Under the pieces are notes generated by a model. It did not search any database. It was not told the DNA's origin and worked only from the letters and a program-made list of their open reading frames with translations. A stretch of 63,289 nucleotides of DNA, filler included, from Octopus bimaculoides (Eukaryota): assembly GCF_001194135.2 (NCBI RefSeq). It is 11 parts of 11 records of this genome, joined end to end, with 100 filler letters (N's around TTAATTAATTAA, not from the genome) between each part and the next. Parts side by side here need not be neighbours in the genome. Positions count along the whole stretch, not along the records: positions 1 to 3,412 come from NC_068987.1; positions 3,513 to 10,430 come from NC_069000.1; positions 10,531 to 15,103 come from NC_068985.1; positions 15,204 to 21,667 come from NW_026373937.1; positions 21,768 to 28,902 come from NC_068986.1; positions 29,003 to 43,141 come from NW_026421380.1; positions 43,242 to 45,566 come from NC_069003.1; positions 45,667 to 59,233 come from NC_069004.1; 3 more parts are not named here. One strand, written 5' to 3'. The number at the start of each line of letters is the position of its first letter. Position 1 is the stretch's first letter. Below are positions 833 through 52,260 of the stretch, one piece after another. Both the position numbers and the translations under genes were made by a program.

Positions 833-919
833 TGCAGCTGAGGATTGCTCTGCATTTTAAATTGATGTAATGATTACATTGTTCAATCAAATGGAGTTGC
901 ATGAAACGATCGTACTGCA
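833..919 (+). ncRNA. Type I hammerhead ribozyme fold, core intact
   Basis: Stem I TGCAG(833-837)/CTGCA(915-919); CTGAGGA 838-844; long stem II hairpin 846-901; GAAA 903-906; palindromic stem III ACGATCGT; GTA cleavage triplet 912-914. Confidence 0.75.
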
Positions 920-3412
920 TTACCTCTGGATATCCTTGTTGCTTACTTTGAAATTGTATGGATAATACCGTACTAAATTCTGGTGCCTCAACTTAAGTAC
1001 CATATTCACCTAAATCTAAATTTTTGCTGAACTCATCTTATATATACATACATAAACGTGGAACTGCCAATAGCAAACTATGGTTTGGCTCATATAAGTT
1101 GCTCCAGTTCTCTGGGGCTGCTGGATGTGAAGTGTATATATTTATATATGTGTGTGCATGTGTATGTGTGTTTGTGTGTGTATATATATATATATATATA
1201 TATATATATATATATATATATATATNNNNNNNNNNACACACACACACACACACACACACACACACACACACACACACACACAAACACACACACACACACA
1301 CACACCCATATATATATAAATATATGCATATACACATACATATACATAACACATATATGCATGAATACATACACACACATATATACATGTATATATATAT
1401 ATATATATATAAGATAAGAAGATGGGGATGAACAGGCTTTAATCACAAAGCACAACAAGTGTTTATGTGCAATCGTAACAGCTGTTAATTGCCGAGTTAT
1501 GCAAATCATACTATTACAAAAATTATCATATATATAATTTCATAAATAAATATGATGTAACAGCAACTGTGCACCAGCACGTCATCAGATGTGTGACATG
1601 ATATCACTGCTATATATATATATATATATATATATATATATATATATAAATATATAAAGCTGTATGTGTGTGTATATATATGCTTGCCTGTCTATATTGG
1701 TGTATGTGTGTACATCATGCAAATATGACATCTGGAATATTTGCGATATTTTTACAGTTTCCTTAATCGACTGTAAATATGTTTTCCTAGCTATCCATGT
1801 TTTTTTCTTGGTTTTGTGAAGCTCAACAGCTTCTCAAGTTTTGTGCTGTGGCAGGCAGTTACATAACCCAATGATTATAGATATAAATCTAAAGTCATCG
1901 TCCGGCTGTCGCATCTGCAATTTCTCAATAATTCACCATAAATGTACGCGTAGTAGTCTTTCTCACATATAATTTCTCTTTGTCTCTCTCTGTCTTTCTC
2001 TCCTATTCTATCTCTTTCTCTCCTATTCTATCTCTTTCTCTCCTATTCTAACTCTTTCTCTCTCTGTCTTCAAAATGTATCGATGTACATATACGCACAT
2101 AAATGCATCTATGCATACATAAATACATACATAATACATACATAAATACATACTTAAATAATACATACATACATATATATANNNNNNNNNNNNNNNNNNN
2201 NNNNNNNNNNNNNNNNNNNNNNNNNNNNNNNNNNNNNNNNNNNNNNNNNNNNNNNNNNNNNNNNNNNNNNNNNNNNNNNNNNNNNNNNNNNNNNNNNNNN
2301 NNNNNNNNNNNNNNNNNNNNNNNNNNNNNNNNNNNNNNNNNNNNNNNNNNNNNNNNNNNNNNNNNNNNNNNNNNNNNNNNNNNNNNNNNNNNNNNNNNNN
2401 NNNNNNNNNNNNNNNNNNNNNNNNNNNNNNNNNNNNNNNNNNNNNNNNNNNNNNNNNNNNNNNNNNNNNNNNNNNNNNNNNNNNNNNNNNNNNNNNNNNN
2501 NNNNNNNNNNNNNNNNNNNNNNNNNNNNNNNNNNNNNNNNNNNNNNNNNNNNNNNNNNNNNNNNNNNNNNNNNNNNNNNNNNNNNNNNNNNNNNNNNNNN
2601 NNNNNNNNNNNNNNNNNNNNNNNNNNNNNNNNNNNNNNNNNNNNNNNNNNNNNNNNNNNNNNNNNNNNNNNNNNNNNNNNNNNNNNNGCCAGCGTCTATA
2701 TAGATATACGTATATTCTATAATTATAAGCATAATTATAATTAGGGGTCAGTTAATTGCTTCACCACACACCGAATTTAGAAATAGGAGTTAAAAATTCC
2801 TTTTCTACTACCGTAAGAATCTCTCAGACAGTAACACACTTTTTTACGTAGGCAAAAAGAAAAATAATGAATCCACACTTTTGGATGTGTTGGGTGGATA
2901 TCTGTTGCGCGATTACGTTTATAATTATAGAATGTTTGTATAATTTTACTTATAAAGGTTATTTTAACGTAACGATCTAATTGGTAAAATTATTAATTGA
3001 TTAATTGATTAATTAATTTTACCCTTTTATCATTAATATTGTATATATATATATATATATATATATAAATAATATATGAGTATATGCATACGTACATGTA
3101 TGTACATACCTACATCTACATGTATATATAAGTGCATATCTAGGTACAGGACGTTGCAAAAAACGTGGACAAAATGATAAACAGAGTACAGAAAACACAC
3201 AGGCCACATAGAGAACATTTCCTTCATCAGCTGCCACCATTCTAAAACTAAGCGTTTCGAAGAGTTAGGGCAGGACGCATTGTTAGAATAGCTCTTCCCA
3301 CGGGCCACAAATTAAATTTGTAGCATGGAGGAATGTAGTGGCGGACAGAAAACAAGACAGGAAAACGAAACAGTGAAAATATGCAAGAAAGGCTATAGGG
3401 CCGTGTGTATGT

Positions 3413-3512
3413 NNNNNNNNNNNNNNNNNNNNNNNNNNNNNNNNNNNNNNNNNNNNTTAATTAATTAANNNNNNNNNNNNNNNNNNNNNNNNNNNNNNNN
3501 NNNNNNNNNNNN
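3413..3512. other. Assembly spacer 44N-TTAATTAATTAA-44N (first of ten)
   Basis: Identical 12-mer in 100-nt gaps at 3457, 10475, 15148, 21712, 28947, 43186, 45611, 59278, 60992 and 62115; it has stops in all six frames. Confidence 0.95.
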
Positions 3513-3626
3513 ATGTCGGTATGCACATACCTGTACGTATATATGCATATACTCATTTACTTTTATATATATATATATATATATATATATATATGTATGT
3601 ATGTATGTGTGTGTGTTTGTGTGTCT

Positions 3627-49210: not shown

Positions 49211-51669
49211 ACTGTAGCGTGGTTCTATCATTTAGTAACTTGGTAGTGTAGTAGTTTGGTAGTTTATTTCAAACAACAGACCACGCTAGAGAGAGAGAGA
49301 GAGGGAGGGGGACAGAGGGGGAACAAAATAACAGAGAAAAGAGAGAAATAAAATAATAAAGAAAAAAATCACAAAGAAAAACGATTTGTCTTGTTGGAGA
49401 AATTTAAGAAAAAATATTTATACAGATTCCCTGAAGAGATTTAGAGATTCAACGTTACGCATGTGAGGCAGGTGGGGGAGGGGGAAAAAACAAGGTAATT
49501 TGTCTCCATCTAATCAATAAATGATATAGTATGTATGTGCGTGAGTGTCCATCTACACATAAAGCATTATGTATATGTGGGAGTAAACAAACCTGGTCTT
49601 GCTTCGGGAACGGGAATTGTTGTAGGTTGACGGAGCTCGAAGTTTAAGAGACCACGTGATCAATAACTTGCGTGTATTTGTTTTTTTGTTTTTGTTTTTT
49701 TTTGTCTTCTATTATAGTTCAATTTCTATCTAGAACTGTGGTTGTTAACCCGGGTCCGCATGATCCTAGGGATCCATTTAAGATTTTGCTGTTAATGATA
49801 ATGTCCAATAAATTGCTTTAAGAAAATTACTATTTGTAAAAATCTCACAACGAGAGATATTCAGTAACAGTACTTTGGAATAAAGATTGTTTGCCAACAT
49901 AACATGGTTTAGGACGAATGTTGCTGCAATTTTAGACCCAGGAGACATCGTCTCCAGCTGGCTATACGACACTATCTGTGTGCTTATATTTTCGAACAAG
50001 GGAATTTAGCACCCCCACTCAGCTCAAAACAGTATCTGAGTAACGCGATTTCCGGGAATGAAGGGAAATAACCTGGAAATCTCAATATACAGATTCAGTT
50101 CGACTTCAATTCGATTCAGGTACGTGATGTTGATATGCTCACAAAATGGCGAAACATCAATGTTCCTCGCTTCTGAATGGGATTTAGAATGAATTGTCTC
50201 TCCTGTCCGTGAATTTAAGATGTTCTAACACCCGGCGCCTTGAGGGTGTCATCCTCACCGCGCTAAGTTGCAGCTTTCTGGCGAACAAGCACTGCCTATA
50301 TATTGAGTATGTGCGCAGTCGATAATGCTTTCAACAGTGGCGCCACTTCTAAACATATTTGAATAATAATAATAATAATAATAATTATTATTATTATTAT
50401 TATTATTATTATTATTATTATTATTATTATTATTATTATTATTATATTAATGTTAATGATAATAATAATAATAATAATAATAATAATAATAATAATAATA
50501 ATAATAATGCGGGATGTTCACAGTTGGAATGCTTTTGATAATAGGTCTACTGCATCAAAGCTTACACGTGTGGTTTAAACTACAACGACAGCACCAGCAA
50601 GAACAATTGCAACAACTTAGATACGAAAATTGTTACTTTGTTCTAATCAAAAGAAACTGTAACGTTTTCCTTTTGTGATGTTCAAAGAATGAAATATAAC
50701 GACAATATTTTCAGTCCATTTCATTGACACAATAAACTTAACATGTATTTCAACTTCTAAGAAAATCTAATGCAATTTTCTCATTACGGAAACTTAATCT
50801 GGCGGTCGGAATGTATAATACAATGTTTCTCAATTGTAAAAGACTGAGAATGAAATTTGCAAAAAAGGAATTCTTTTTTTCGTTTTTATTCTGTTTATCA
50901 ATTGATGTGTGATTCTTAACAGTTCAGTTGCCAACAGTTTGAAAATGAAAGAGTCAGCTTGAAGCGTTGATGTAGCAAACACGCTTTTATATGTTTGTTG
51001 CATATCATTATAGACTACAGCGTTACCCCATCACTTGACGTATAACGTTGTGAATATACTTTTGTTTCTAAAGTTGATACTTGTAGTTACGCGTACCTCT
51101 GATTCGTTCAACAGTGATCCGAGATAACAAAGAACACGGAACAGCTCAAATTTGAACCATGTTACTCTCATTACGGACTGACAGGCGTAATTAGATTGAA
51201 ACACATGTGTCTGGTGAACCACTGGTGTTCTGCGCAAATCCCTGTATGCTTAACCCCAAATTCTCTTTAAACAGTTTCTTTGTGAGAAAATATTAGAGTT
51301 CGTGTCGTTCCACGTTCGTAATATATTTTATAAATATTATACTCAAAAGCATTAGAACTGGAGGAAACATGTGGAGAAAGAGTCGCTGAAGCAACCACAG
51401 ATGTGTGACGAAAGATTTCCAGGCAATAGACATAAGATAAAATAAAAACAATAAGAAACGAGTGAAGAACGAATATATAGTGCGTGTGTTTATTTGACAA
51501 GGAAAAAAAATGACCCACACGAAACATAACATAATATATTTTTCTTTTAAAATTTCAAGGTACTTAAAATGAAGGAAAAAATGCTAATTCTTGAAACAAA
51601 ATAAAATATTCATATAATGAGCTAAATTTTTTTGTTTCTTCATTTGCATCATTTTGTTATTATACAGGT

Positions 51670-52140
51670 CACTACTTGGAACCGAACTCCGAAAAGATAC
51701 AAAAGATATGCGGCCCATGTATTTTCAGGACAGCATTCAAGAGTAATACAACACTTCGCAAATATCTCCTTCGAGTAAAACCACCAATAGAAGAGAATAT
51801 GACCAAAGATGGCTTGTATTCCATCCCATGCAGCTGTGGTAGGTTATACAAAGGCGAAACATGTCGCCCCCTCAAAATAAGGGTAGAGGAACATCGCAAA
51901 GCTGTGACATGTGGAGATATTGATAAATCGGGTATAGCTGATCATGTATGGAAAAATGGAGACCACCTCCTCCTGTGGGATGAAGTTAAAATGATAGACA
52001 GAGAACACCACTGGAAAATACGAAAACTAAAAAAGCAGCACATATGCTAGGATACAACAACCTCCTAAGCAGACTGAGTGCAGATATGAGTAGCATATGG
52101 GAACCGGTATTAAGGAAGGATAGGAAAATATTAGATTGAT
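51670..52140 (+). mobile_element. Penelope-like element, C-terminal GIY-YIG endonuclease fragment
   Basis: ORF 51676-52050 contains TAFKSNTTLRKYL...GLYSIPCSCGRLYKGETCRPLKIRVEEH...SGIADHVW...WDEVKMIDREHHW, the typical PLE EN domain; frameshifted near the end. Confidence 0.9.
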
Positions 52141-52171
52141 AAGACCTAAGATTCACTTCATAATTGCCCAC

Positions 52172-52260
52172 CGGCATATGGTGTAGTGGTTAAGGGCGTG
52201 GGGTACTAGCTCCAAGATTCCGAGCTCGATTCCAAGCAGTAACCTGAATAATAATATTAT
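52172..52260 (+). promoter_or_regulatory. tRNA-like Pol III head (A and B boxes) followed by (AAT)n, directly after the Penelope ORF
   Basis: A box TGGTGTAGTGG 52179-52189; B-box-like GCTCGATTCC 52224-52233; AAT run follows. Confidence 0.6.

What the first reader, a model, noticed from the sequence alone, without database searches (positions are those of the whole stretch)
833..52260. Four unrelated hammerhead ribozyme families plus a Penelope partner in one 63-kb window
Seen: four CTGANGA...GAAA...GTH-type arrangements (833-919, 10180-10242, 30385-30430, 44952-44996) with paired helices. They share no sequence outside the core, and all have a tiny or palindromic stem III (ACGATCGT, ACGT, ACG[G]T, ATTCGGGT). 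A Penelope GIY-YIG fragment lies at 51670-52140. Established: minimal type I hammerheads with palindromic stem III, active as dimers, mark Penelope pLTRs and animal retrozymes. Inference: this genome hosts several distinct ribozyme-bearing retroelement families, some possibly non-autonomous circular-RNA retrozymes. I cannot tell whether they have been catalogued.
Basis: partly seen in the sequence, partly recalled or inferred. Interest (0 to 1): 0.85.

Follow-up and report, generated by a model that had tools for sequence, protein, structure and literature searches.

The report
Octopus retrozyme among decayed Penelope hammerheads
This stretch of octopus-type DNA holds four damaged hammerhead-ribozyme motifs; one lies in a transcribed 351-base repeat that occurs head-to-tail elsewhere in the genome and is likely a retrozyme (a small mobile element predicted to spread through self-cut RNA circles), a kind already known in mussels, corals and salamanders.

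Summary
The four type I hammerhead arrangements exist and exceed chance: 4 observed against 0.11 per shuffled window, never more than 2 in 1000 shuffles. Each window copy has a defect, and none fits the published minimal descriptor exactly. Motif 3 is on the minus strand and lacks U16.1.

Motif 4 lies in a 351-nt unit (44811-45161). Its family is multi-copy in two organisms and joins end-to-start in DNA contigs and in RNA reads. The unit is 44% GC, ORF-less and predicted to self-pair. Family letters repair helix III. This fits a non-LTR retrozyme. Circles and cleavage are not shown: the joint also exists in DNA, and no read ends pile up.

Motif 1 has a second copy whose helix III palindrome changes on both sides. 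Motifs 2 and 3 resemble Penelope minimal hammerheads; their families were not tested with reads.

The Penelope endonuclease fragment is real but carries no hammerhead, so 'partner' is unproven. Verdict: new members of known kinds; I found no description for octopus in four literature searches.

The parts
832..920 (+). HH1: type I hammerhead, 6-bp helix I, long imperfect helix II with U.U at its base, 8-nt palindromic helix III, predicted cut after 914
   Evidence: second copy
897..1020 (+). 3' part of the HH1 element, shared with the second copy; TA-rich repeats follow
38623..38762 (-). Second, 5'-truncated copy of the HH1 element: GAAA box and GUA triplet kept, palindrome ACGGCCGU; 5' half of the ribozyme missing
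   Evidence: 24.1 bits against a maximum of 8.3 in 30 shuffled windows; pair counts
10180..10242 (+). HH2: Penelope-type minimal hammerhead with helix I broken by a 3-nt bulge; predicted cut after 10233
   Evidence: weak relative of the 3' flank at 2915-2743 (-), 9.8 bits against 5.8, core not kept
30385..30430 (-). HH3: Penelope-type minimal hammerhead with G at U16.1 (30391), likely inactive; in a ~145-nt piece between a trinucleotide microsatellite and TA-rich repeats
44811..45166 (+). Solo, circularly permuted copy of a 351-nt repeat unit plus 5 repeated bases, followed by (TA)n; likely a retrozyme monomer
   Evidence: joint 45161 to 44811 in 17 and 12 contigs and 21 and 24 RNA reads; GC 44%, circular fold z -3.35
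44952..44996 (+). HH4: type I hammerhead with intact core inside the unit; predicted cut after 44990
49883..50017 (-). Diverged relative of the 3' part (45016-45160) of the 351-nt unit; no intact CUGANGA box upstream
   Evidence: 22.5-24.3 bits against a maximum of 4.4 in 30 shuffles
51673..52141 (+). Frameshifted C-terminal fragment of a Penelope-like ORF (GIY-YIG-type endonuclease region); no RT; no hammerhead in its 3' flank
   Evidence: 67-72% identical to four proteins, three with RT upstream

Best explanation
The four motifs are damaged type I hammerhead sequences, likely left by four ribozyme-carrying retroelement families of the Penelope orbit; the fourth lies in a transcribed 351-nt unit that joins head-to-tail in genomic DNA and is likely a non-LTR retrozyme. 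Proposed cycle (inferred from published work on retrozymes and PLEs, not shown here): tandem units are transcribed; two hammerheads pair through their palindromic helix III and cut; the unit-length RNA is ligated into a circle; a Penelope-like RT-endonuclease primes at a fixed internal site and copies it into microsatellite-rich DNA. That would give tandem, solo and 5'-truncated copies that then decay. The window copy starts 180 nt upstream of the predicted cut and is one unit plus 5 nt long, so its template would be a circle or a multimer, not a cut linear monomer. HH2 and HH3 are likely truncated pLTR ends. HH1 likely belongs to an older family with a long helix II.
For: Motif excess over shuffles. 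HH4 family: 4676 and 3857 contigs of two organisms laid on the 601-nt stretch (this count includes two flanking repeats). Joint 'goes back 351' in 17 contigs (X1), 12 contigs (X12), 21 reads at 13 starts (X21) and 24 reads at 16 starts (X22). The loose ends shown before 44811 and behind 45166 run into the unit's other end, those behind 45176 into (TA)n. Family letters restore the helix III base pair: C at 44983 in 96% and 95% of contig depth. A second change at 44984 gives a perfect palindrome: 17-19% of contig depth, 35 of 45 and 46 of 67 RNA reads. None of the 40 variant rows shown falls in the catalytic boxes. Unit: GC 44%, longest stop-free frame 89 codons, circular MFE -105 against -87+/-5 in 100 shuffles. 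Size matches mussel (350-390 bp) and axolotl (330-350 bp) retrozymes. HH1 second copy keeps GAAA, GUA and the palindrome through a double change. HH2 and HH3 show the extra base after A9, G10.1-C11.1 and palindromic 15.2-16.2 that PMC4209133 lists as features outside its descriptor. Recently active Penelope families are reported in O. vulgaris.
Against: No pile-up of read ends anywhere in the stretch, the predicted cut included (table 6: none). The same blank is reported for an anole Poseidon element. The joint exists in DNA, so RNA joints do not prove circles. RNA level is low (782 of 12.9 M and 761 of 12.0 M reads), and 86-89% of laid reads run on into unlike sequence, as expected for copies inside longer transcripts. 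No listed contig spans two hammerheads. 123 variant rows and 780 loose-end rows were not shown, so core variants or a junction to a PLE ORF may be hidden. The HH1 covariation is one pair in two sequences (267 of 500 shuffles reach it). HH3 has no second copy in the window, and HH2's weak relative lacks the core. The Penelope fragment is unlinked.
Confidence: 0.68

Rival explanations
1. All four, HH4 included, are pLTR ends of autonomous Penelope-like elements. The 351-nt joint marks tandem pLTRs, and no independent RNA circle exists.
For: HH4's hammerhead is PLE-like (extra bases at both ends of helix II, 4-nt loop 2, small palindromic helix III). Depth rises towards the 3' end and copies end on (TA)n, like 5'-truncated insertions. 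Retrozymes and pLTRs are homologous in Xenopus.
Against: The loose ends shown at both unit edges lead to the unit itself or to microsatellites, not to an ORF (24 of 804 rows shown). The five PLE proteins in hand give no tblastn hit in the unit at E<=1. The joint length is nearly fixed (346-351).
Confidence: 0.17
2. The 351-nt unit is now a satellite or dispersed repeat spread at the DNA level. Its hammerhead is a fossil and its RNA is passive read-through.
For: Low read counts, both read orientations similar, most reads run on into other sequence, no cut ends. Eight of nine Xenopus dimers tested did not cleave.
Against: RNA reads favour the perfect-palindrome letter (69-78% against 17-19% in DNA contigs) and carry the end-to-start joint more often, relative to hammerhead depth, than contigs do (the units are not comparable, so this is a hint).
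Confidence: 0.12
3. One or more motifs, most plausibly HH2, are chance arrangements inside unrelated repeats.
For: HH2 has the lowest score (7 against 11-13), needs a bulge, and its weak relative lacks the core. About 10% of shuffled windows hold one hit. The window was picked for this feature.
Against: Four hits, all palindromic, against 0.031 expected. HH4 and HH1 have family evidence. About 0.2 for HH2 alone, under 0.03 for the set.
Confidence: 0.03

Closest known systems
Metazoan non-LTR retrozymes (Cervera and de la Pena 2020, PMC7229834): mussel 350-390 bp, axolotl 330/350 bp, coral 220-245 bp
   Same: Type I hammerhead in an ORF-less unit of 351 nt, GC under 50%, head-to-tail joints, predicted high self-pairing, solo monomers, PLEs in the same genome. 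HH1 shares with axolotl HHR_Amex2 a U.U at the base of helix II and a 2-bp helix III with a tetraloop.
   Different: HH4's ribozyme is PLE-like rather than canonical. Circles, cleavage and high expression are not shown. A ~100-nt 3' part is shared with other, diverged families. HH1 has a 58-nt helix II arm. Octopus is not named in the main text; the supplement could not be read.
[quoted passage not shown]
   Same: HH2 and HH3: CUGANGA plus one extra base, G10.1-C11.1, GAAA, palindromic CG. Many unrelated families per genome, mostly single motifs from truncated PLEs.
   Different: None of the four passes the exact descriptor. None is tied to a PLE ORF here.
Vertebrate retrozymes as PLE derivatives (Li, Clavereau, Pollet, bioRxiv 10.64898/2026.07.22.740005)
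   Same: Solo monomers beside tandem units; minimal and canonical hammerheads both counted; PLE origin proposed.
   Different: That study covers 31 vertebrates, 3 insects and a coral, and tests pLTR homology only in Xenopus. pLTR homology could not be tested here.
Penelope/Poseidon-type EN+ PLE ORF (P0001-P0004; one named Octopus sinensis LOC118763458)
   Same: C-terminal GIY-YIG-type region, 67-72% identical; RT upstream in three relatives.
   Different: Short frameshifted fragment, no RT, no hammerhead downstream. The clade label is my reading of the domain order and was not tested with a tree.

Membership tests
non-LTR retrozyme (HH4 unit) | Type I hammerhead within the repeat unit | tested here: met
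   Intact core at 44958-44990; family letters restore helix III
non-LTR retrozyme (HH4 unit) | Short (150-450 bp) unit in head-to-tail copies | tested here: met
   351-nt end-to-start joint in 17 and 12 contigs of two organisms; the window copy itself is solo
non-LTR retrozyme (HH4 unit) | Two consecutive units each with a complete hammerhead (Li et al. criterion for 'active') | tested here: inconclusive
   No listed contig piece is long enough to span two (table 8)
non-LTR retrozyme (HH4 unit) | Non-coding, GC below 50%, highly self-paired | tested here: met
   GC 44%, longest stop-free frame 89 codons, 70% paired, z -3.35, all predicted; PBS and PPT not searched
non-LTR retrozyme (HH4 unit) | Expressed as unit-length circular RNA | tested here: inconclusive
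   RNA reads carry the joint, but so does DNA; low depth; strand not resolved
non-LTR retrozyme (HH4 unit) | Self-cleavage as monomer or dimer | not testable with these tools
   Needs in vitro transcription; no read-end pile-up in two RNA-seq runs
non-LTR retrozyme (HH1, HH2, HH3) | Tandem unit organisation | not tested
   Reads were laid on HH4; none is tandem in the window
PLE minimal hammerhead (PMC4209133) | Exact RNAmotif descriptor | tested here: not met
   0 of 4 exact; HH4 with a helix III insert; HH3 with one core mismatch
PLE minimal hammerhead (PMC4209133) | Extra base after A9, G10.1-C11.1, palindromic helix III | tested here: met
   Met by HH2, HH3 and HH4; HH1 has the palindrome but U-A as first helix II pair
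PLE minimal hammerhead (PMC4209133) | Located in the pLTR of a PLE | tested here: inconclusive
   No PLE ORF beside any motif in the window; no genome held
Penelope-like element (51673-52141) | [quoted passage not shown] | tested here: inconclusive
   Only the C-terminal part is in the window; relatives P0001-P0003 carry RVT_1 upstream; Pfam GIY-YIG hits only P0005, weakly
Penelope-like element (51673-52141) | pLTR with a hammerhead beside the ORF | tested here: not met
   No CUGANGA core between 49431 and 54414 on either strand; the copy may simply be truncated
Rfam hammerhead families | Score at gathering threshold | tested here: not met
   0 hits in the window; none at E<=10 around HH4 and HH1; HH2 and HH3 not scanned alone

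The most novel reading that the evidence does not exclude
The octopus 351-nt unit lives partly as a replicating RNA circle. The variant that dominates the RNA reads beside the hammerhead has three marks nearly absent from the DNA contigs laid: A>C at 44923 (25 of 39 and 24 of 30 reads; 0 in both contig sets), G>C at 44946 (25 of 40 and 33 of 53; 0 and one contig) and a 2-nt insertion behind 44951 that would lengthen helix I (20 of 37 and 25 of 53; 0). RNA reads also favour the perfect palindrome. If that variant has no genomic template, this is an animal retrozyme copied RNA-to-RNA, in a group of units that share a ~100-nt 3' domain but differ in their ribozyme region. One strongly transcribed locus that the contigs dropped, or a difference between individuals, is the likelier cause.
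Probability: 0.07. Interest if true: 0.8.

Novelty: new member of a known kind. Interest (0 to 1): 0.33.

Why it matters
It likely extends non-LTR retrozymes to cephalopods, where my searches found only a bare Rfam count (235 hammerhead_1 hits in giant squid). A PLE-type hammerhead inside a retrozyme-sized tandem unit gives a mollusc case for testing the proposal that retrozymes derive from Penelope pLTRs, so far tested only in Xenopus. It also names a concrete, expressed 351-nt substrate for cleavage and circularity assays. It does not reveal a new kind of element.

Tried and rejected
No whole genome is held, so the genome-wide census could not be run. Earlier findings were not open. Exact-pattern scans for HH3 found 0 in viral, metagenome and prokaryote collections, which need not hold octopus DNA. 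Protein searches with an open frame across HH3 found nothing; uninformative for non-coding DNA. A phmmer search with an antisense frame across HH1 gave one hit, P0006 (E 1e-3, four stretches of a 56-aa tandem repeat); rejected as evidence. The metagenome scan with the Penelope fragment gave one short, weak locus, L001, with no hammerhead match. The whole-window Rfam E-value scan was swamped by microsatellite hairpins; no hammerhead among the 150 of 322 rows shown. Candidate HH1 relatives at 12991-13100 and 53260-53500 were rejected. The 46-bp array at 59334-60490 has no CUGANGA core. One search was mis-registered by two columns on the 3' side and redone. Unconstrained folds of the window copies do not give the active fold, and fold z-scores are mixed (-0.92, -2.15, -2.97, +0.24). 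I did not extrapolate density to the genome, because the window was chosen for this feature and the exact descriptor finds 0. Summed contig depth is not a copy number and is not used as one.
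Full report
Setting. The window is eukaryotic, rich in microsatellites and gaps (53,430 called bases). The only named relative of its Penelope fragment is an Octopus sinensis protein at 72%, so I call the genome octopus-type; the species was not determined. No whole genome is held.

Observation. All four arrangements are present. A descriptor that allows one defect returns exactly these four, against a mean of 0.109 and a maximum of 2 in 1000 local dinucleotide shuffles; palindromic hits average 0.031. 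The descriptor is post hoc. The published minimal descriptor returns 0; it returns HH4 if helix III may hold extra bases and HH3 with one core mismatch. Each copy is damaged or atypical. HH1 has U.U at the base of a 58-nt helix II arm. HH2 needs a 3-nt bulge in helix I. HH3, on the minus strand, has G at U16.1, which by established hammerhead chemistry (recalled) should block cleavage. HH4 has G.U wobbles in helix III. The four neighbourhoods do not resemble one another. Rfam misses them.

HH4 is part of a 351-nt unit. I laid two contig sets (organisms A and B) and two raw RNA-seq runs (organism A, about 6% of each read) on 44700-45300 at 80% likeness. 4676 and 3857 contigs and 782 and 761 reads were laid; these totals include two flanking repeats. 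A joint from 45161 back to 44811 stands in 17 and 12 contigs and in 21 and 24 reads; the other return joints shown measure 346-351. The loose ends shown before 44811 and behind 45166 continue into the other end of the unit, and those behind 45176 into (TA)n (24 of 804 rows shown). The window copy is one unit plus five repeated bases. The unit is 44% GC, has no frame open beyond 89 codons, and folds as a circle at -105 kcal/mol against -87+/-5 for 100 shuffles. Family letters repair the ribozyme: C at 44983 in 95-96% of contig depth restores the 15.2-16.2 pair, and C at 44984 completes a perfect palindrome in 17-19% of contig depth and in 35 of 45 and 46 of 67 reads. None of the 40 variant rows shown lies in the catalytic boxes; 123 rows were not shown. 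Depth is highest at 45057-45161, and the window holds a diverged relative of this part at 50017-49883, so a ~100-nt 3' domain seems shared among several families.

Against a strong reading. No place shows many read ends, the predicted cut included. The joint exists in DNA, so it does not prove a circle. 86-89% of laid reads run on into unlike sequence, and strand is unresolved. No listed contig spans two hammerheads. The main joint is 5.5% of contig depth at 44973 (1168 of 21,104; other joint rows add to this) against 21 of 43 and 24 of 73 reads; contigs and reads are not comparable, so this is only a hint. Three marks common in RNA reads (44923, 44946, insertion behind 44951) are absent or nearly absent from the contigs. 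The runs come from different samples and contigs drop variants, so a single expressed locus is the simplest cause. Phasing of these marks was not shown.

HH1. A second copy lies at 38762-38623 on the minus strand (24.1 bits; best of 30 shuffled windows 8.3). It keeps GAAA, the GUA triplet and most of the 3' helix I strand, and changes the palindrome centre from AU to GC, so all 4 pairs of the dimer helix hold in both copies. One pair in two sequences is not statistically significant, but it is the expected kind of change. The 5' half of that copy is missing. A U.U at the base of helix II with a 2-bp helix III and tetraloop is described for axolotl HHR_Amex2.

HH2 and HH3. Both show the features that PMC4209133 found outside its descriptor, and both lie in short pieces bounded by microsatellites. 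HH2 has a weak relative of its 3' flank (9.8 bits against 5.8) that lacks the core. HH3 has no second copy in the window, and outside searches were blank but uninformative. Their family status is inferred.

Penelope fragment. 51673-52124 matches the C-terminus of RT-bearing proteins at 67% with a frameshift near 52030. No CUGANGA core lies within 2 kb. It is followed by a short sequence that looks tRNA-like to my eye (ARAGORN found nothing) and preceded by an inverted copy of that sequence's end. It shows that PLEs inhabit the genome. It does not show that this family mobilises any of the four.

Mechanism. Shown: motifs, repeat status of HH4 and HH1, tandem joints, transcription of HH4-family sequence. 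Inferred from PMC7229834, PMC4209133 and PMC11167929: dimer-dependent cleavage, ligation to a circle, and copying by a PLE RT-endonuclease from an internal start. The permuted, unit-length window copy fits a circular or multimeric template.

Literature seen. PMC4209133: parts 1-3 of 4 and supplement passages. PMC7229834: parts 2-3 of 6, passages and Discussion; its supplement could not be read and may list octopus. bioRxiv 10.64898/2026.07.22.740005: parts 1-3 of 5; supplements not seen. Passages only: PMC8557442, PMC11167929, PMC13282606 (supplement listed, not read), PMC8967140, PMC6962438, PMC7761336, PMC10886601. Searches for octopus or cephalopod with hammerhead, ribozyme or retrozyme gave no description of such elements, only the giant squid Rfam count. 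Repbase and Dfam could not be searched, so the families may already be catalogued under other names.

Verdict. Real, mostly decayed, and of known kinds. The useful new piece is a defined, expressed, retrozyme-like 351-nt family in octopus. Novelty: new member of a known kind. Interest 0.33.

Noticed in passing
window:59334-60490: Tandem array of a 46-bp unit, about 25 copies, about 80-85% alike, with no hammerhead core.
   Followed up: partly
window:30519-31366 (-): Broken Pif1-type helicase remnant (PF05970 E 2e-28, PF21530), likely from a Helitron; it ends at a microsatellite directly before the HH3 piece.
   Followed up: partly
window:52175-52270 (+) and 51651-51693 (-): The Penelope fragment is followed by a short tRNA-like sequence with an (AAT)n tail and preceded by an inverted copy of its end; either the element's own 3' end in an inverted structure or two short SINE insertions.
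   Followed up: partly
window:45057-45161; 49883-50017 (-): A ~100-nt part of the HH4 unit is far deeper in contigs and reads than the hammerhead. About 200 reads per RNA run join it at 45071 from a different upstream sequence, which suggests a second, more expressed family.
   Followed up: partly
window:44923, 44946, 44951: Letters common in RNA reads but absent or nearly absent from both DNA contig sets; not A-to-G, so not ADAR editing. Unexplained.
   Followed up: partly
window:10483-11919 (-) and 47594-47968 (-): Open frames that look to me like decayed LINE reverse transcriptase pieces (label recalled; no Pfam hit).
   Followed up: no
window:42569-42965, 45297-45550, 13170-13400: Long inverted-repeat (self-palindromic) stretches, 76-88% alike.
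   Followed up: no
window:12-420, 5812-6034, 7189-7419, 25901-26335 and others: A dispersed ~150-230-nt repeat in more than ten copies, likely the dominant SINE.
   Followed up: no
P0006: An unnamed 290-aa record made of a 56-aa tandem repeat (168-nt DNA period) weakly matched an antisense frame of HH1 (E 1e-3); its DNA could not be fetched.
   Followed up: no
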